DNA of 64,000 nucleotides. Source: Isurus oxyrinchus. Lineage: Eukaryota. Under the pieces are notes generated by a model. That model had not been told where the DNA came from and searched no databases. It worked only from the letters and a program-made list of their open reading frames with translations. The position numbers were made by a program, and so were the translations under genes. Shown piece by piece: positions 27,625-57,669 of this stretch; position 1 is the first letter of the stretch; each line of letters begins with the position of its first letter. The stretch lies in contig JANJGN010000022.1 of the NCBI GenBank assembly GCA_026770705.1, positions 6,324,001-6,388,000 of the forward strand. The letters run 5' to 3'.

Positions 27625-28050
27625 GGCTTACATTTACATAGTACCTTTCACAACATCAGGACATACCAAACTGCTTTACAGCCAATGAGGTACCAACAGT
27701 GTCGTAGTCACTGTTGTAATTTAGGAAACACAGCAGCCAACTTGTGCACAGCAAGCTCCCATAAACAGCAATCAAATGTGGCAATCAATTAATCTGCTTT
27801 AGTGATGTCAATTGAATCACAGAATCACAGTGCAGAAGAGGCCATTCAGCCCATGTATTGACTATTTGGCCGGAGCACCACGGAGAACTTCCCTGCGCTT
27901 CAAAATAGTGCCATGCAATAATTTACATCTACCTGAGAGAGGCCTTAAGCCCTCAGTTTAAAGACAGAACATCCTGCTGTGCAGTACTCCCTTCAACCAA
28001 TGGGTCTTTGACTCAGAGGGAGAGTGCTACCCGCTGAACTACAACTGACA
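27625..28050 (-). mobile_element. DeuSINE copy
   Basis: aatagtgccatg...tttacatctacctgagag and ctcagagggagagtgctacc. Confidence 0.7.
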
Positions 28051-28373
28051 TCAAGAAATAGGTAACACTTCTCAAATGTTAACTGATATTCAAAATGTCC
28101 CCAAATCACAAGGTAAACAAAATAAACCAGTGTGGAAACAGGTTCGCAAACATTATTTAAGCCACATTTCTTTAAAAAGAAGTCAAGAATCAGTAGCTTC
28201 TCATGTCATTATAGATCACAAAACCTCACTGTACCTTACATTACAGTTTGCAGCAGAAGTCCTGTCGTAGTGCATAACACTGCTCTTACTGTAGCTCCTG
28301 CAAACTGTAACACAACACTAATGATAGCATTAAACTTCGGGCAATTGCACCCCAATGAGGTGATTGAACAATA

Positions 28374-29047
28374 ACAACTTGCATTTATATAACGCCTTTA
28401 ATGTAGTAAACCACCTGAAGGTGCTTCACTGGATCCTTTTCAAACTTTGTCACCAAGCCACATATTAGGACAAAAACAAAAACAGAATGCACTGTAACAG
28501 AATACGGTCCCCCGCTTATTACAGCACCCCGCCCACCAGCAATCAGCAACCGTTCATACCAGATGGTTAATTAATTATCTGTGCGTTTGGATATAATTGA
28601 CAAAGGAACCGTATGCTAGAATAGTATACCGGTTAGTGTACTGTGATAAAGGCACCAGTGATAAACTGTGCAGTGTATTGCATGGTGTACCACATAGCGT
28701 ACGGTAGCATATCACATTAAAGGTACCACTTTAAGGACACCAGCTATTCCAGGCAGACTCAGCTATTTTTTAAAAATCCACTGTAATCATCTGCAGTTTT
28801 TTTGTTTTTACCACATATTAGGGCAGATGGCCAAAAGATTAGTCTGAGTTAGGTTTTAAGGACTGTCTTAAAGAAGGAAAAAGGGAGGTGGAGAAATGGA
28901 GAGATTTGGAGGAAGCGGGTGTGGAGTTCTAGAGCCCAGAACTGGAGGAAAGCAAAGATCATGGAGAATTATGGGGCTGGAGGAGGTGCAGAAATAAAGG
29001 GGACCAAGACAAAGGAAGCCTTTGAAAACAAGAGTGAAAATTTTAAA
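28374..29047 (-). mobile_element. L2 3' fragment interrupted by the TSD-flanked insert at 28470-28810
   Basis: Tail acaacttgcatttatataacgccttt at 28374. L2 sequence resumes at 28811 after the duplicated ccacatattagg. Confidence 0.75.
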
Positions 29048-29361
29048 ACAGTGGATTTTTAAAAAATAGCTGAGTCTGCCTGGAATAGCTGGTGTCCTTA
29101 AAGTGGTACCTTTAATGTGATATGCTACAGTACGCTATGTGGTACACCATGCAATACACTGCACAGTTTATCACTGGTGCCTTTATCACAGTACACTAAC
29201 CGATATACTATTCGGTGCCTTTATGTGATCTAGCATACGGTTCCTTTGTCAATTACATCCAAACGCACAGATAATTAATTAACCATCTGGTATGAACGGT
29301 TGCTGATTGCTGGTGGGCGGGGTGCTGTAATAAGCGGGGGACCGTATTCTGTTACAGTGCA
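28488..29361. repeat. Long inverted repeat: arms 28488-28784 (297 bp) and 29048-29361 (314 bp)
   Basis: The arms are reverse complements apart from about 3 substitutions and one 17-bp indel. The spacer is a Penelope tail followed by L2 sequence. Confidence 0.95.
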
Positions 29362-29982
29362 CTTCTGGGACAAGGATGCACAAGAAGATCTTTTGTGCTT
29401 GTGAAGGAAGATGGGAGATAAAGACAGCTTTTAACGTATCAAGTGATTGTGGCAGTGTAAGTGCGCTGGCATTGCCTGCAAGTACAATACTTTACATAAA
29501 GATGAACTGATAAATACCAGCCAACCTCCTTTAGGAAATGGTAACAATAGATGGGAAGTCAATCAACACAGGTTCTGACAAGAGGCTGATTGTATTGTGC
29601 AGGTGTATGCTTGTGCCCTTTAACTACAGAACAGGATATGAGTGTGTACACCCTGTAAAGGAATCTTGCACTCAACACATCAATCACAGAAACCCAACCA
29701 AACCCTTTCCAAGTAACAGAATCACAACATGGCCCCAATTCTCAACTCACATCCCTACTACTGCTCTTTAACTGTCTACATACCTGGGACATTAAACTGG
29801 GCTGCAGCCACTCAGAAGACCTATTATGGAGTGTGTTTACACACGGTGAATCTCTGAACTCCACACAGCAAAACTGGATCATCTTTTGGGGAGATTGTGA
29901 CCTGATGTCCTTGTAGAATTTAGTACTGATTCCAACTCCTCTCACTTACTGACATTGACTTAACAGGGCAGTACATATTCAA

Positions 29983-31084
29983 AACAAAAACAGAAATACC
30001 TGGAAAAACTCAGCAGGTCTGGCAGCATCAGTGGAGAAGAACAAAGTTGACGTTTCGAGTCCTCATGACCCTTCAACAGAACTAAGTAGAAATAGGAAAG
30101 GGGTGAAATATAAGCTGTTTTAAAGGAGGGTGCGGGGGAAGAAGTGTGTGTGGGGGGTGGGGGGGTTGTTGGGACAAGCAAGCAGTGATAGGAGGAGATA
30201 ACCATAAGATGTCACAGACAAAAGAACAAAGAGGTGTTGAAAGTGGTGATATTATCTAAAAGAATGTGCTAATTAAGATTGGAGAGCAGGATGAGCAAGG
30301 TACAGATAGCTCTAGTGGGGGTGGGGTGAAATAAACCATGGGTGGAATACATTTCAAAATAATGGAAGTAGGTGGGAAAAGAAAAATTTATATAAATTAT
30401 TGTAAAAAACAAAAGGTAGGGGGAAGAAACAGAAAGGGGGTGGGAATGGAGGAGGGACCTCAAGATCTAAAGTTGTTGAACTCAATATTCAGTCCGATAG
30501 GCTGTAAAGTGCCTAGTCGGAACAATGCAGCAGGCCAAACACGGACATGTGGGCAAGAGAGCAGGGTGGAGTGTTAAAATGGCAAGCGACAGGGAGGTTT
30601 GGGTCATTCTTGCGGACAGACCGCAGGTGTTCTGCAAAGCGGTCGCCCAGTTTACGTTTGGTCTCTCCAATGTAGAGGAGACCACATTGGGAGCAACAGA
30701 TGCAGTAGACTAAGTTGGGGGAAATGCAAGTAAAATGCTGCTTCACTTGAAAGGAGTGTTTGGGCCCTTGGACGGTGAGGAGAGAGGAAGTGAAGGGGCA
30801 GGTGTTGCATCTTTTGCATTTGCATGGGGAGGTGCCGTAGGTGGGGGTTGAGGAGTAGGGGGTGATGGAGGAGTGGACCAGGGTGTCACGGAGGGAACGA
30901 TCCCTACTGAATGCTGCCGGGGGGGTGAAGGGAAGATGTGTTTGGTGGTGGCATCATGCTGGAGTTGGCGGAAATGGTGGAGGATGATCCTTTGAATGCG
31001 GAGGCTGGTGGGGTGATAAGTGAGGACAAGGGGGACCCTATCATGTTTCTGGGAGGGAGGAGAAGGCGTGAGGGCAGATGGTTG
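29983..31084 (-). mobile_element. Penelope-like retroelement 3' portion: GIY-YIG endonuclease remnant plus pLTR
   Basis: Encodes FTCISPNLVYCICCSQCGLLYIGETKRKLGDRFAEH (GIY-YIG). pLTR at about 29983-30085. Flanking direct repeat acatattcaa at 29973-29982 and 31085-31094. Confidence 0.9.
30045..30083 (-). ncRNA. Minimal type I hammerhead ribozyme motif in the Penelope pLTR, variant core CUGUUGA
   Basis: Minus strand reads AGUU CUGUUGA A GGGUC augag GACUC GAAAC GUC AACU: stem I AGUU/AACU, stem II, GAAA and a GUC cleavage triplet. Activity is unknown. Confidence 0.65.
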
Positions 31085-32527
31085 ACATATTCAACCTTGC
31101 TCATTGGTAACAGTGTTAACTCTAAGAGGGGAAAAGTGTGGGCTCAAGCCCCATTATGATGCTTGAATACATAGTCCAGACTGAGAATGCTGCATTGTTG
31201 AAAGTGCTTTTTCTGAATGACTTACAGTAATGAGGAAATGCAACAATATCAGAGGTGCATTTTTGAATGATGTGCAGTAGTGAGGGAATACTACATTGTC
31301 AGAGGTGCTTTTCTGAATGATGTAAAGGGAGTGCCACAATGTCAGAGTTGCTGTACTTTGAATAAGGCATTAAACTGAGACCTTGTTAAGGCACTTAGGA
31401 GAATCCACCACAATATCATATGGAAGGATTCTCTTCCTGGCCAAATTCCGAGCAGAAACAGAATCACTGGACATTAATTTTGTGTCTGAAGGGGCTCATT
31501 AGGTGTCAACTGGCAGCTGCAATCGCGCAGTGCTTGAGTAGAATTGAGAATGTGATTGAGTAGTTGCTCCTCTCTACACCATTATTGTGCATTTCACTTC
31601 TGGTTTAACTCCTGTCCTGGATCTTGCTGAGGACTGTGGTTTCATGGGAGGCCCTTGTGCTCAGTATCTTGCTGGGTGATAATTCTTCACCTGCAAACCC
31701 ATAGACAGTGACTGTCAGCTAGTTATGTTGCTGCAGAGAGCAGCACATGCTTCTTCCTAGTGGGCAGTGACTGGATGGTCGTCAGGAACAGACTCATTTG
31801 ACACAGGATGACTGAGGCCAATTGCAGTGCTCACCTTTCCCACAGGGGCTGAGCTACTAAAATGCAGAACAGATTAAATTTCAACTCCGTCCCAGTGTGC
31901 TTCCAGGTGGTAGGTAAGGAAAAGGCAGTGGTGGAGGCCGCTTTCACTGTATCCTCTGAATGATTGATAAGGGTTCATCTGTGAGGCTTTTACCTGGGTG
32001 GCAGCATCAGCACTTAGAAAGGTAGTTCATAACTGTGGTCCTATAGTGTTGAAATCTTTGGTCTGAGCTACCAGAGATTTCATCCTGGCAGGAGAACGTC
32101 AGAAGTAATTCCTTCTGTTCATTAGATAGCAGGCTGAGGCCCTTATAGGAGGCTGTTAACCCATAGTCCGAACTCAGATCCCAGAGCGGACGCACTGCCC
32201 TATCCATTCCCCTAAGTCAGGGCCCCGTTTCGCAGTCACACTCCATGTGAGGCTGCAAGCAGGAGACAACCATGCATGTTGTTTTATTATTTCACGGGAT
32301 GCGAACAACGCTGGCTGCACCAGCATTTCTGCCCATCCCTAACTGCTGTTGAGAAGGTGATGATAAGCAGCTTTTTCAAACCGCTGCAGTCCAAATGGTG
32401 TATGTACACCCACGGTGCTGTTAGGGAGAGAGTTCTAACATTTGAACCGGTGACGGTGAAGGATGGCGCTGATACAGTTCCAAGCCAGGATAGTGAGTGA
32501 CCTATAGGCAGGAAACGTGGAGGTGGT

Positions 32528-32759
32528 AAAAAATAAACAGAATTACCTGGAAAAACTCAGCAGGTCTGGCAGCATCGGCGGAGAAGAAAAGAGTTGACGT
32601 TTCGAGTCCTCATGACCCTTCGACATTCTGTCGAAGGGTCATGAGGACTCGAAACGTCAACTCTTTTCTTCTCCGCCGATGCTGCCAGACCTGCTGAGTT
32701 TTTCCAGGTAATTATGTTTTTGTTTTGGATTTCCAGCATCCGCAGTTTTTTTGTTTTTA
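32528..32759. mobile_element. Penelope pLTR fold-back (inverted pLTR pair)
   Basis: Perfect 85-bp arms at 32541-32625 and 32629-32713 with a 3-nt loop. The arm sequence matches the pLTR at 29990-30080. Confidence 0.9.
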
Positions 32760-32962
32760 CCAGCATGGACTGGTTGGGCTGAACGTCCTGCTTTTGTGCT
32801 TCATATCCTCTGTAATCCCATCTAATAACCCTCTCAGACCCCCTTCGCCCACCACAGACACCACCTCACCCTCAATTACCCTCACACAACCTTACCCCGT
32901 TCTCAGCTCCCTTTCGCCCCCTCACTCCCTCCCCTCACATCCTTGGACACGCCCTTACCCCT

Positions 32963-32967
<5 letters not shown>

Positions 32968-32995
<28 letters not shown>
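32968..32995. repeat. (CA)n microsatellite
   Basis: Direct reading. Confidence 0.95.
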
Positions 32996-32998
<3 letters not shown>

Positions 32999-33179
32999 TC
33001 CCCAGCCCTCAACCCCCCCTCCCCCCACTCACTCATGTGTGTTGCTGATTCCCCAGGCCTGTAACCCTGGGGGGGGGGGGGGGGTTGGTTTCTGGGGGGG
33101 AATCGCAGCCCAACAAGGGAGTCAGCAATTTGAGAGGAGAGGGGGGAGGGGAGGAGGGAGGGGGGATGGGAGGGGGAGG

Positions 33180-46940: not shown

Positions 46941-47067
46941 TCAATCGATTCGCTCCACTTTCCCCAAAATCTTTCCCTCATACATGGGCAGGGTACTATC
47001 GTCACTCTGAACTTCTTCAAAAACTGCCCCACAGTCAAATTCATTGCTGGCTCGCTTGAAGTAGTAC
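46941..47067 (-). CDS. axin2: AXIN2 last coding exon, C-terminal DIX domain [41 protein letters not shown]
   Basis: 127 nt after acceptor cttttcacacag, with the TGA stop at 46941-46943. The [10 protein letters not shown] terminus is Axin2-type. Confidence 0.96.
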
Positions 47068-47709
47068 CTGTGTGAAAAGAGAGAGAGAGAGCAGTTAGAA
47101 CAAACGAAGCAAAGATGGGGAGAGAGAAAGAGATGGAGAGAAAGGAAAGGAAGCTAGATGAGAGGGGAAGAGGAGAGGGAGGAGGAAGGCAAGGGAGAGA
47201 CTGACAGAGTTACAGCAACTAGTGCCTATCATTCAATCACAGATAAAGCCAGATCACATGAACCCCAATAAATAAATCAAGAAACAGGGGTCAATCCAGA
47301 AAGCGAATATATGGAATATTAAACCATATGAATTCTATACAATATGTCAATAAATATATCCTACTAAATATATACGTATTCCATATGAACTTGTGTATTC
47401 CATGTGAATATTTCTGCACGTATATATAATATGCAGTGAAACAGGGTGTTTCCTGGGCTTATACAGGATCATATTTTCCTTTGTCTCCTGAAAAAGAACC
47501 AGAAGAGAGGGGAGGAAAAATATTTAATGCAGTGAGTTGTTACAATTTGGAATGCACTGCCTGAAAGGATGGAGACGGACTCTCAAAAGGGAATTGGATA
47601 AATATTTGAAAAAGAGAAAAAATTTCAGGGCAAATGGGGATAAAATGGGAGATAAAAGTGGTGGTGGTGGTGGTGGGGGGCTGGTAAGATGGGTGTAGGA
47701 CTAGTTTGC

Positions 47710-50000: not shown

Positions 50001-50254
50001 CTGAGATCATACACAATCAACTGACTAAAAGTACAGGCCAACACAAGTCGGTAACTAATGCCTGAAGATTAGCTTTCTTCACACTGCAACCCAGCTGGCC
50101 CATTCTTGCAGCAGAATCCAACAGCCCTATTGAGAAGACCCATGTACACTCAACACAACAGAATTTCCCCCCGCCTCTCCCTCCTCAGTCACCTCTCCCC
50201 CTCCATCCTGGGTTAACCCAGCTCCCAAACTGCAACAGGGGGGTATTCCCATAC

Positions 50255-50425
50255 CTGTAATTTCCTTTCTTGCTAAGCTGCTCCTTGAAGTGTGCCAGGG
50301 TCAGGCTGTGACCTTTCATCATCCTCCGGTACGGAATGTCTTCTCCACAGAAGAAGTAAGTAACGACCAGCTCACCAGACTGAGCCGCATGCACAGGTGC
50401 CGCTTGTTTCTTTGGCGCTTTGTGC
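50255..50425 (-). CDS. axin2: AXIN2 coding exon (exon 10 equivalent), N-terminal part of the DIX domain
   Basis: 171 nt, acceptor ttttgtctccacag, donor gtatgg, phase 2-2. Encodes [40 protein letters not shown]. Confidence 0.96.
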
Positions 50426-54633: not shown

Positions 54634-56288
54634 CTGAGGGTCAAACAGAGGGAAAGGTACATCAATGGAAAGCTCTCAATTTCTGCTAATTCAATGAGTG
54701 AGGACCATTTGTACCCCCACTTAGTATCTCATTAACTTTAATAGTGGTTTGCTAGGCCCACTATTGAAAACGCTGGCACACACTCAGATACAGTTCCAGA
54801 GGGACCCCATCAGCCCTGGAACACCAAGGACAACTATAGTCTTATATTGTCTGAGCTGTGATTCATTGGCTCAGTGCAGGCCATAAATTGAACCCCAGGA
54901 CTCACCAGGCCTCATTTCTCCATTCCCCCCCACCCCCACTTTGTCTCACCGCTGTTTAAAGTGACACTTCCTGTCGACTGCCTACAGTGCGTTAAATAGC
55001 CAACTCAAATGCTACCCTCCCATCGACCCTACACTGCATTAAATGATCTAACCAGGGTCCGCGACTCTCCCTGTGCCAGCGGGAGTTAGAAACACAGGAA
55101 CAGGAGGAGGCCATTCCAGCCTGTTCTGCACCATTGGTTTTGATCACAGCTGATATGTACCTTGACTCCACCCCCCCTAAGTTTTACTGCAGCTATTCAG
55201 TATCCAGCGAGTGCTGTTGGGGTGCAGATGTTGTATGAGGAGGCACCACAAGGGTCAGGAACCCTGCCCCCACCATGGTGGGCATTTAGCACCAGTGCTC
55301 ACGTGCCAACAATATCCACCTGGTGAAGCCTCCAACAGCCACTGGATGTTATGGAACATCCTTATCTTTCAACAGAGACTAACCCACTTAAACAGGCAAA
55401 TCGTGAGCCTCTCACCAAGTGACCCATCATTCCCCACACAGGGGCCAAAGTGTGGAGGTGAGTTACTGGAGCATCACCATCAGCACTCACACTGCCTCCA
55501 CCCACTGAGAGGCAACATACCAGGCTGGGGAATGGAGCCAAACGGGGCAAAGACATAGAGAAACGAGGGTACCCAGAATGTTAATCCGTTAACGCCACAG
55601 TAGATATAACAACCGCGAACAGGACATTGAAAGAAATGATGCAACACAGAAATTATGTAACAGCGTCACCCCCCCAGGGAGCGCCACGGCCCAGCCGCGG
55701 AGCTCCCCCCCCCCCCCCCCCCCACCGGGAGCTCCCCGTCAGTGTCACCTCCAAGAAGCTATCAGGAGAACAAAGATAGGATTGGCCACAGTTACAAATC
55801 TGGGTGGGCCACAGAGAAGATACCGAATGTGGTGTCATTGAAAGCGATCGCTGTCACTTCATGCTTGGTTGGACACATAAGTAATGCTATTACAGAATAT
55901 AATCGATGCTTGATTGATGCATCGCTGGGTTCCTGAATTTGAGAAACCAGCAGCCCAGGTTTCAGCTCTGCCTGTGCCGGATCTGACAACCGGGCTCTGC
56001 TATCATCGGCCTCAGTGTTTCCGACTCAGCGGAGAAAGGGAACGGAAAAGGCCAGGGCTCCCGAGTACTATCCTGACGGCCAGTGGTGCTCATGTCCAGG
56101 CACCCAGGGTGGACAAGCTGAGGGTGAGCCATGACACTCACCGTAGTAAAGCAGCCCACTGACTCACTAACCTGGCTTCCAAGCATTGCAGAGCTAGGGT
56201 AGCGGAGGGAGTTGCTCCCCCTCGAGGAAAGGAGGGGGGGGGGTGATGGGAGCTGATAAAACTTTAAAGGAAAAGGACGGGATCTTAC

Positions 56289-56791
56289 CCAAAGGCAAAC
56301 TGTTCCACTTGGAGTACCGGCGTTTCAACCTTTGAGTGACTTCGACACTTGGCGTAGGAACAATAGTCCAGGCTGCTCGGACAGAGGCAATGCACCCTTT
56401 GAGCAGCCTCGGCTTCGATCTGTTCCTTTGTCTTGGGGACAGTGTGATGGTGGATGTAATGGTGGTGGATGTACTTGCTGCCCTGTTTGGAGACATACCC
56501 TTTGCTGGAAGTCCCTGGGGGTGTTGCCTGGGGCCCCAGGGCTGGTTGAAACTTTGTCCCCCGGAGACAGTCTGGTGTCTGGGAGGGCGGGGAGTATCTC
56601 CCCACCCCTGGCGATTGGCAGCCCGGCGTTTTCAGCACACGTGACAGGTGGTCGTCCAGGATGGTCTGTGGGTCATCGTCACAGCCTCCAGAGGGCAGGA
56701 GGGTCAGTGGATGCAGCTGGTGCTGGGGAGGTGCAGGTTCCATCTCCGTCTGTGTTTTTACTGTGGGGAGTTCACCATCTTCACCTTCATC
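56289..56791 (-). CDS. axin2: AXIN2 coding exon (exon 6 equivalent), beta-catenin-binding region and His-rich segment
   Basis: 503 nt, acceptor ctgcag, donor gtaaga, phase 0-2. Encodes DDDPQTILDDHLSRVLKTPGCQSPG, HHHYIHHH and KTKEQIEAEAAQRV, which are Axin2-type rather than Axin1-type motifs. Confidence 0.96.
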
Positions 56792-57669
56792 CTGCAGTCA
56801 TACAGAAATGGGGCTTTTAATATTCACTGACAGCAGTCATTGACTCTACAAAACAACTGTGACACCACATTACCCCCCCCAACCTGACTAAGGCCCACCT
56901 TCTACAGCTGCCCTCCTACACCCAGTCTTGTTCATCATTCCCATCTGTCCAGGAACTCCCTGCCCCCAAACTACTCATTCACACATCCCTCTGGTGCCTT
57001 TCACCCAACCTCTGCAACTTTTCTCAATGGGTGTAACCTCTTCTTCCCTCCAACCAGTTTTCATCCGTGACCAATTCCAAGGGTATTACCAAGAGAGGCT
57101 TATTTTAATTTTGGATGGGAATCCTCTGGGATCGGCCGGTTTTATATCCCATTCTGACCTCACGGCAGACCGAAATGGGGTGTGCTGTAAACCCAGTGTT
57201 GCTCCCAGTTCCACCTGCTCTGTCTGAAAGGTTGGGGGGGGGGGGGGGAGATGGGTTAAAGTTACACCCCCTTCCCCCGCACAGTGCCAGATAAACACAG
57301 ACGGACTTCGCCCCAGCCCCACAGAGGGGCAGATGCTGGAGGTGACCCTGTGAGGGTCTCATCATGATGCAAGCACTTTATTGCCTCAATTCCAAACAGC
57401 ATTTTAAAAGGGATCGCAAGGTAACACTGCCCGATTGGAACTGACTGGAGAGAGATCTAACAAAATCAGGAGTTACACAGATGTTTCATGCAGTACGATG
57501 ATTCTAATTGTATTAAAAAACCCAATTAATTTCTACCACACTTTTACTTTCTTTCTTGGGGGGGGGGGGGGGGGTTGCAAGTTTCAAGAGATTAAAATTA
57601 AAATGACTTTTCCCCTCTCCAGCTCTACCCACAAGCTCTAGCAGTCCCTCGGCGAGTTCGCTGTCCTAC

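What the first reader, a model, noticed from the sequence alone, without database searches (positions are those of the whole stretch)
28458..29361. Penelope hairpin shell whose interior is replaced by an inverted copy of neighbouring DNA
Seen: a 12-bp direct repeat ccacatattagg (28458-28469 and 28811-28822) brackets a 341-bp insert inside an L2. The insert starts acaaaaacaaaaacagaa and ends catctgcagttttttttgttttta, closely matching the two ends of the fold-back pLTR at 32528-32759. In place of the pLTR palindrome it holds 297 bp that is the reverse complement of 29048-29361, 263 bp away, with about 3 substitutions and a 17-bp indel. Inference: either a fold-back pLTR was cut as a cruciform and repaired by copying local DNA, or the RT switched template onto nearby DNA during insertion. 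Either way, Penelope hairpins could act as generators of local inverted duplications and long dsRNA-forming repeats.
Basis: partly seen in the sequence, partly recalled or inferred. Interest (0 to 1): 0.7.

Follow-up and report, generated by a model that had tools for sequence, protein, structure and literature searches.

The report
Penelope insertion bridged by local DNA
A tiny, dead insertion of a Penelope-type jumping gene holds a backwards copy of about 300 bases of the DNA next door, likely copied in to seal the break while the element was inserting; the same scar turns up at a dozen other copies in this genome, so these elements are a small recurring source of local duplications, of a kind already known from human LINE-1 insertions and DNA repair.

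Summary
A 12-bp TSD flanks 19 nt of the element's inner start, a 297-bp inverted copy of single-copy DNA 263 nt away, 3 filler nt and 23 nt of the tail. Contigs of a related species, about 1% divergent, cross the same junctions. No earlier hairpin is needed: arms this short occur in ordinary copies. A targeted search found local host DNA between the arms at 12 of 93 loci examined, 9 segments direct and 4 inverted. I estimate about 0.4-1% of 15,417 fold-backs. These copies are as diverged from their sources as the arms are from each other, so capture is about as old as insertion. Best reading (0.6): two short, separately primed cDNAs joined by templated repair synthesis. Early breakage of a hairpin is not excluded (0.27). 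The dsRNA claim has no support here. It works like L1 templated insertions and repair-mediated duplication. This scan noted the same kind in other genomes. One captured unit stands at two sites.

The parts
28458..28469 (.). Target-site duplication, left copy (12 bp)
   Evidence: Exact repeat. TSDs of 11-17 bp flank other copies of the family.
28470..28488 (-). Inner arm: 19 nt of the element, inverted, starting at the inner site about 33 nt in from the tail end
   Evidence: Anchored alignment to observed copies; same start in seven other loci.
28483..28487 (.). 5-nt microhomology shared by the inner arm and the end of the source (29367-29363), followed by a one-base skip
   Evidence: Alignment.
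28488..28784 (-). Captured host DNA: 297-bp inverted copy of 29048-29361; lacks 17 bp, likely lost later
   Evidence: The related species shows one 314-bp contig at about double depth.
28785..28787 (.). 3 filler nucleotides that match neither source nor element
   Evidence: Sequence.
28788..28810 (+). Tail arm: last 23 nt of the element's 33-nt tail
   Evidence: 22 of 23 identical to 32737-32759; the full tail occurs 17,170 times exactly.
28811..28822 (.). Target-site duplication, right copy
29048..29361 (+). Source of the copy: single-copy host DNA, 314 bp
   Evidence: Two genome matches, both local; none in the other loci fetched.
28365..29047 (-). Old LINE 3' end that the insertion interrupts (L2 by recall, untested)
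   Evidence: Left and right pieces are contiguous in 4 other copies.
29977..31081 (-). Separate, longer copy of the same Penelope-like family, with endonuclease remnant (not part of the event)
   Evidence: 92% to the fold-back arm; GIY-YIG E 1.6e-4, just under the Pfam cut-off.
32528..32759 (.). Separate ordinary fold-back copy of the family: 98-nt arms, 3-nt loop, 33-nt tail (not part of the event)
   Evidence: no confident TSD found.

Best explanation
This is one Penelope-like (Neptune-type) insertion with two very short element ends and an inverted copy of neighbouring DNA between them, and the copy was likely made as a bridge while the insertion was being sealed. Inferred steps: (1) the element's endonuclease cut both strands about 12 bp apart. 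(2) Each 3' end primed reverse transcription at one of the element's two adjacent start sites, and both cDNAs stopped early, at 19 and 23 nt. (3) The two A-rich cDNAs have the same polarity and could not pair, so one end primed on chromosomal DNA 225 bp beyond the site and copied 314 nt. The simplest route is the tail-side end, with 3 added nt, folding back on its own strand. (4) The new strand was released and joined to the other end through the 5-nt microhomology, and filling in made the TSD. (5) Three substitutions and a 17-bp deletion came later. Shown: the anatomy, the single-copy local source, presence in a related species, and recurrence of the class. Not shown: the order of steps, which end primed, and whether the RT or a host polymerase did the copying. 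The product is likely a neutral scar.
For: Anatomy and junctions. In vitro, a PLE protein cuts and extends both strands and starts RT at two sites that bracket the 30-40-nt tail (PMC11167929, parts 1-2 of 4 read). Here the tail arm is too short to contain the inner start, so the inner arm needs its own priming unless sequence was lost later. Short arms without filler are ordinary. TSD-flanked inserts with inner/tail arms of 100/23, 108/26, 53/26, 164/28, 41/20, 9/133, 10/33 and 0/24 nt occur. Of 25 genome-wide hits for an inner arm ending at CAGAA, 6 are direct fusions to a 126-135-nt tail arm, 1 is this locus, and the other 18 are mostly older-subfamily, nested or chance matches. Recurrence: 12 of 93 loci (first 100 of 195 hits) hold 69-256 bp of local DNA at the arm junction, 11 of them with a TSD; 1 of the first 50 unselected fold-backs does too (L293). 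Age: arm-arm differences 37 of 1107, copy-source 67 of 1694, Fisher p 0.42; per-event Spearman 0.69, p 0.013, n 12. Of 26 junctions, 8 overlap by 2-6 nt, 6 by 0-1 nt and 12 carry extra bases. Precedent: 22 templated insertions among 3,598 solo L1 insertions (10.1101/2024.08.27.596794, passages).
Against: The dating cannot separate 'during insertion' from 'soon after', which is when a perfect palindrome would be most fragile, and one event (L226: arms 9 of 89, copy 2 of 64) looks younger than its arms. The focal arms are too short to date. The 12 other captures have arms of about 100 and 135 nt that end at nearly the same place (within 2 nt in 11 of 13), which also fits a break at a hairpin tip, and the search pattern demanded such arms. 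The short-armed copies could themselves be later deletions. The L1 templates are described as typically under 250 bp and within 15 bp of the site, unlike this one. Direct-orientation copies (9 of 13) cannot arise by simple fold-back. No empty site or intermediate state was seen.
Confidence: 0.6

Rival explanations
1. An ordinary fold-back inserted first. Its near-perfect palindrome then broke (cruciform or hairpin cleavage), most of both arms were trimmed, and repair synthesis copied nearby DNA into the gap.
For: Near-perfect palindromes are very common in this family (listing). In other captures the host DNA sits exactly at the tip between symmetric arms. L226 has a copy less diverged than its arms. 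L222 and L223 share one unit, which ectopic repair of a broken hairpin could explain. Microhomology and filler are general repair marks (PMC2671141, passages).
Against: It needs two events, plus loss of about 80 and 110 nt while both outer ends and the TSD stay exact. At least 15,417 fold-backs persist, and 18 sampled ones have aged to 3.4% arm divergence intact. Pooled copies are not younger than their arms. Arms end at the same hot spot in plain joins too (listing), so symmetry does not discriminate. The related species shows no intact hairpin.
Confidence: 0.27
2. A generic double-strand break, unrelated to the element's structure, fell inside an existing 42-bp mini-insertion and was patched by repair-mediated duplication.
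For: Such duplications are widespread in vertebrates: mean 162 bp, maximum 619 bp, donors within 5 kb, with microhomology and filler (PMC2671141, passages). Mini-insertions without filler exist (L043, L044, L152). AAT stands on both sides of the copy and could be read as a 3-bp duplication.
Against: The target is about 40 bp and the patch lies exactly at the strand switch. The paper's densities (0.18-0.65 per Mb of TE, other vertebrates, different detection) predict about 1-3 events in all fold-backs, against 12 seen in about half of one filtered search and 65-113 estimated.
Confidence: 0.07
3. The element's RT jumped from its own RNA onto a nascent host transcript of the region and reverse-transcribed 314 nt of it.
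For: Untemplated bases before a jump are an RT habit (recalled, R2 elements). PLEs are reported to capture host sequence between pLTRs (PMC3846280, passages). An Axin gene is transcribed towards the site on the strand that would serve as template for the tail-side end.
Against: The site is about 17.6 kb past the last coding exon. Captures occur in both orientations and on both sides, and one event joins two sources from opposite sides (L254), which a DNA template explains more simply.
Confidence: 0.05
4. An assembly artefact, or two independent insertions of a dispersed repeat or transposon end.
For: No long read or single contig spanning the whole structure was seen.
Against: The arm has only local matches. 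Contigs from the window's species and from two samples of a second species cross the junctions, and the arm shows double depth.
Confidence: 0.01

Closest known systems
Inverted-pLTR plus tail insertions of endonuclease-bearing Penelope-like elements (PMC8557442 passages; PMC3846280 passages; PMC11167929 parts 1-2 of 4)
   Same: Inverted 5'-truncated piece at one end, a 30-40-nt tail at the other, a TSD; the family ORF has RT, a Cys motif and GIY-YIG.
   Different: The arms are only 19 and 23 nt and do not overlap. The passages I read describe host DNA captured between pLTRs and mobilised in trans, not a copy of the immediate flank placed at the arm junction.
L1 templated insertions and twin priming (10.1101/2024.08.27.596794 passages; PMC11702581 passages)
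   Same: Non-element genomic DNA copied into a TSD-flanked retrotransposon insertion; two cDNAs primed from the two target ends; similar rarity (22 among 3,598 insertions, against about 0.4-1% here).
   Different: Different enzyme class. The second primer starts at a fixed site about 33 nt from the first. Templates lie about 90-1,200 bp away, not within 15 bp. The events are fixed in the germ line and this one is shared by two species.
Repair-mediated duplication by capture of proximal DNA (Pace et al. 2009, PMC2671141 passages)
   Same: Single-copy donor within 5 kb, similar size, microhomology and filler at the ends.
   Different: There the copy interrupts an existing element with contiguous halves. 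Here it lies at the strand switch between two oppositely oriented element pieces, at a far higher estimated density.
Local fold-back inverted insertions at yeast double-strand breaks (PMC11724301 abstract and discussion)
   Same: One end primes synthesis on its own side, and the product is captured by end joining, giving an inverted repeat.
   Different: Yeast events are 2 to about 150 bp, mostly under 14, and start next to the break. This one is 314 bp, starts 225 bp away and carries retroelement cDNA at both ends.

Membership tests
Endonuclease-bearing Penelope-like element (Neptune type) insertion | Family ORF with RT followed by a C-terminal GIY-YIG endonuclease | tested here: met
   513-aa and 398-aa frames in L125 and L118. 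RVT_1 E 0.0045 and GIY-YIG E 3.2e-4, both below the Pfam cut-offs, so weak by score. YVDD/YIDD and LVY...YIG motifs are visible.
Endonuclease-bearing Penelope-like element (Neptune type) insertion | CX2-5CxxC motif between RT and endonuclease (Neptune/Nematis) | tested here: met
   C-x4-C-xx-C upstream of the GIY-YIG motif in both frames; definition from PMC8557442.
Endonuclease-bearing Penelope-like element (Neptune type) insertion | Inverted 5'-truncated piece plus a 30-40-nt tail at one end, flanked by a TSD | tested here: met
   33-nt tail in the family; 71 of 162 oriented loci have a TSD of 11 bp or more. The focal insert has 19 nt of inner arm, 23 nt of tail and a 12-bp TSD.
Endonuclease-bearing Penelope-like element (Neptune type) insertion | Hammerhead ribozyme motif in the pLTR | tested here: inconclusive
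   No Rfam hammerhead match in 28300-33000 at E up to 1. A degenerate minimal motif is suspected by eye, from recall; it is absent from the focal insert.
Endonuclease-bearing Penelope-like element (Neptune type) insertion | Placement in the Neptune clade by RT phylogeny | not tested
   No tree was built.
L1-type templated insertion | Non-element genomic DNA duplicated inside a TSD-flanked retrotransposon insertion | tested here: met
L1-type templated insertion | Template typically under 250 bp and within 15 bp of the site | tested here: not met
   314 bp, 225 bp beyond the TSD; description.
L1-type templated insertion | Made during integration | tested here: inconclusive
   Class-level dating fits but cannot exclude 'soon after'; the focal arms cannot be dated.
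L1-type templated insertion | Driven by L1 ORF2p | tested here: not met
   The ends belong to a GIY-YIG Penelope-like family.
Repair-mediated duplication (Pace et al. 2009) | Single-copy donor within 5 kb; copy up to about 620 bp | tested here: met
Repair-mediated duplication (Pace et al. 2009) | Microhomology, filler or deletion at the breakpoints | tested here: met
   5-nt microhomology on the left, 3-nt filler on the right.
Repair-mediated duplication (Pace et al. 2009) | Copy interrupts an existing element whose two halves are co-oriented and contiguous | tested here: not met
   The copy lies between oppositely oriented Penelope pieces; the interrupted LINE is split by the whole TSD-flanked unit.
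Repair-mediated duplication (Pace et al. 2009) | Orthologous site lacking only the copy | tested here: inconclusive
   The one related species laid has the complete structure; no more distant relative was examined.

The most novel reading that the evidence does not exclude
Penelope's double-primed insertion turns a small share of its copies into arm-host-arm cassettes, made by the RT itself switching to nearby DNA. Such cassettes can move again as non-autonomous elements, because their two cDNAs would be complementary and would resolve cleanly. The pair L222/L223 (same 351-bp unit, identical 112-bp filler, different TSDs) would be a caught case. The focal locus would be in-vivo evidence that the two RT start sites are primed independently.
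Probability: 0.2. Interest if true: 0.65.

Novelty: new variant of a known kind. Interest (0 to 1): 0.42.

Why it matters
How Penelope-like elements finish an insertion is open: the in-vitro paper leaves second-strand synthesis and repair unvalidated. Inserts whose tail arm is too short to contain the inner start, yet carry an inner arm, are best explained by separate priming at both start sites in vivo. Host DNA at the arm junction marks a stage at which two unjoined ends search their surroundings, out to about a kilobase. With over 15,000 fold-backs and an estimated hundred or so captures in one genome, the class can be catalogued and its timing tested with polymorphic alleles. The focal copy itself is probably inert. 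The outcome, a local duplication, is already known from L1 and from break repair. My paper searches listed no report of flank capture at PLE arm junctions; the library lacks most subscription papers.

Tried and rejected
Unselected sampling did not find the class. None of 161 other tail-bearing loci (90 taken in genome order, the rest chosen by similarity to the tail end or for short tails) had local host DNA of 20 nt or more abutting the tail-side block. Ten loci were flagged: the focal one, 4 that were at least 94% element, and 5 examined further (L101, L130, L159, L171, L164) that proved element-derived; upper 95% bound 2.3%. Of 71 inserts with a confident TSD only the focal one had non-element filler over 17 nt. 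Dropped from the count of 12 in the targeted set: L276 (source is a repeat, ambiguous); L222 (no local source, same unit as L223); L211, L217, L221, L229, L244 (two neighbouring insertions, or a duplicated flank plus arm); L239 (element-derived); L219, L234, L269 (non-element loop, no source in about 10 kb); about 18 loci with unmasked stretches and no local host hit, not examined further. L294 is a chance match of the motif to another repeat. Flanks were only 1.5 kb for L198-L225 and 3 kb for L226-L290. Concerted evolution of the two arms: the related species' collapsed contig differs from both arms of this genome at 3 places, plus 1 in one sample, and matches the left arm at 2. Conversion and merged variants in the contig explain this equally well; it stays open. 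No RNA holder was listed; this says nothing about expression. The predicted fold of 28488-29361 is strong but trivial for any long inverted repeat. Rfam gave only unspecific hairpin matches. No look-alike stretch appeared in the scan's notes on other genomes. A two-step switch through the 6-mer found at both ends of the source was considered; it rests on 2 extra matching bases and is not supported. PMC13526784 (passages) added nothing. Searches were seen as search listings only. No supplements were read; the L1 preprint's supplementary figure on template distances bears on the comparison and was not seen.

Full report
Observation. A 12-bp repeat at 28458-28469 and 28811-28822 brackets 341 bp. 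Inside lie 19 nt of the element's inner start in inverted orientation, a 297-bp reverse-complement copy of 29048-29361, three extra bases, and the last 23 nt of the element's tail. Copy and source differ by three substitutions and a 17-bp gap. The left junction has 5 nt of microhomology and a one-base skip; the right junction has none. The source has two matches in the 4.98-Gb genome, both local, and none in the other loci fetched. The unit splits an old LINE 3' end whose two sides are contiguous in four other copies; the label L2 is recalled.

Is the assembly right? Contigs from four public runs were laid: one of the window's species, which may be the assembly's own sample, and three runs from two samples of a related species about 1% divergent (5 differences in 569 flanking bases). 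In the related species, contigs cross the left junction (27900-28517), the tail junction (28755-28874) and the entry to the source. A contig of exactly 314 bp (29048-29361) shows about double depth. The insertion therefore predates the split. Both arms there appear to be 314 bp, so the 17-bp gap is likely a later deletion in this species' left arm; that inference depends on contigs that can merge variants. No piece spans the whole structure. Whether the two arms have been homogenised is open.

The element. The exact 33-nt tail occurs 17,170 times. Longer copies encode RT, a C-x4-C-xx-C motif and a GIY-YIG domain (Pfam scores under cut-off), which fits a Neptune-type Penelope-like element as defined in PMC8557442 (passages); no tree was made. 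Typical inserts have a 12-16-bp TSD, an inverted arm of about 100 nt and a tail arm of about 135 nt, and 15,417 fold-backs carry both arm motifs within 500 nt. In vitro, a PLE protein cuts and extends both strands and starts at two sites bracketing the tail (PMC11167929).

Was there ever a hairpin here? It is not needed. Inserts with one or both arms very short and no filler exist: 100/23, 108/26, 53/26, 164/28, 41/20, 9/133, 10/33 and 0/24 nt (most come from searches aimed at short tails). Of 25 genome-wide hits for an inner arm ending where the focal one ends, six are direct fusions to a 126-135-nt tail arm. A 23-nt tail arm does not contain the inner start, so the inner arm needs its own priming unless sequence was lost later. 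These short forms could be later deletions, but tail-only inserts with a TSD (L034, L041, L076) never needed a palindrome.

Is capture general? Among 161 other loci not chosen for capture there was none. A pattern for fold-backs with a non-element loop gave 195 hits; the first 100 rows (93 loci) were all fetched. Twelve hold 69-256 bp of local host DNA at the arm junction: nine with a source that has at most one similar stretch among the other loci, and three with a repeat source whose local copy is the best match. Eleven have a TSD. Of 13 segments, 9 are direct and 4 inverted; 8 come from the inner side and 5 from the tail side, about 90-1,200 bp away. One event joins sources from both sides. 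One of the first 50 unselected fold-backs is also a capture (L293). Correcting for the filter gives 65-113 events, 0.4-0.7% of fold-backs. This is a rough and probably low figure, because the pass rate is estimated and longer-armed events are missed. Background repair duplication at published densities would give about 1-3 (PMC2671141), with the caveat that species and methods differ.

Timing. Arm-arm divergence is 37 of 1107 and copy-source divergence 67 of 1694 (p 0.42); 18 plain fold-backs give 51 of 1500. The two measures correlate across the 12 events (rho 0.69, p 0.013). Capture is therefore about as old as insertion. This argues against late patches in general but cannot exclude breakage soon after insertion, and L226 looks like a later patch. 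The focal arms are too short to date; the copy's 1% divergence from its source is similar to the divergence between the two species.

Mechanism. Most likely (0.6) both target ends were primed, both cDNAs aborted, and with nothing to pair they were bridged by synthesis on nearby DNA. One junction has microhomology and the other filler, as in the hybrid synthesis and end-joining model from yeast (PMC11724301, abstract and discussion). A fold-back of the tail-side strand is the simplest route for this inverted, tail-side case, but direct copies elsewhere need strand invasion or a sister chromatid. The enzyme is unknown. Rivals: early hairpin breakage (0.27), an unrelated break (0.07), an RNA template (0.05), artefact (0.01).

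Consequences. The site lies about 17.6 kb beyond the last coding exon of an Axin gene on the minus strand. Nothing shows that the inverted repeat is transcribed, so the dsRNA idea is untested. The focal copy has not spread. Elsewhere one captured unit stands at two sites 2.6 Mb apart: 351 bp, 98.6% identical, filler 112 of 112, unrelated flanks, different TSDs, and the junction 22-mer found only at those two places. Re-transposition and ectopic conversion both fit.

Known and new. It works like L1 templated insertion (22 among 3,598 insertions; 10.1101/2024.08.27.596794, passages; PMC11702581, passages) and like repair-mediated duplication, but fails a defining feature of each. Host capture between pLTRs is reported in a rotifer (PMC3846280, passages). 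Five searches listed no paper on flank capture at PLE arm junctions. The scan's own notes report six single cases in other genomes. They are unchecked; they prompted the genome-wide search but are not evidence. Verdict: real, a new variant of a known kind, interest 0.42.

Noticed in passing
L222 (G000:C4:9834502-9834650) and L223 (G000:C4:12445721-12445869): The same 351-bp arm-filler-arm unit (98.6% identical, filler 112 of 112) at two sites with unrelated flanks and different TSDs; a 93% source for the filler lies beside L223 only. The junction 22-mer occurs at just these two places. Re-transposition of a chimeric fold-back, or ectopic conversion.
   Followed up: partly
Family-wide; window 32626-32640 as an example: Both arms of most fold-backs stop within about 10 nt of one point. 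By recall this is the 5' edge of a degenerate minimal hammerhead-like fold; Rfam gave no hammerhead match. It may be a strong RT stop.
   Followed up: partly
G000:C1, first 50 fold-backs: Several short loops recur letter for letter at different sites. This may be repeated use of the same microhomology, or re-copying of whole fold-backs.
   Followed up: no
L254 (G000:C7:15132829-15133084): One loop joins two local sources, 125 bp from one side and 85 bp from the other, both direct.
   Followed up: partly
L219, L234, L269: Loops of about 60-160 bp of non-element DNA with no source found in about 10 kb around them; possibly distant templates.
   Followed up: partly
L043, L044, L034, L041, L076: Micro-insertions of 17-41 bp that consist of little more than the tail, each with a TSD; repeat annotation would miss them.
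   Followed up: partly
window 29048-29361: The related species' collapsed contig differs from both arms of this genome at 29173, 29206 and 29298: gene conversion between the arms, or merged variants in the contig.
   Followed up: partly
window 29176-29186 and 29214-29224: An 11-bp direct repeat inside the source; the second copy lies in the 17-bp stretch missing from the left arm.
   Followed up: no
window 32528-32759: The neighbouring fold-back has no confident TSD, unlike most two-armed copies; possibly a target-site deletion.
   Followed up: no
window 56288-56797, 50251-50370, 46956-47075 (minus strand): Exons of an Axin gene: beta-catenin-binding motif and DIX domain.
   Followed up: partly
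L039 (G000:C13:122243277): A 23-nt tail directly preceded by three tandem copies of a 20-bp local unit; possibly slippage at the insertion site.
   Followed up: no
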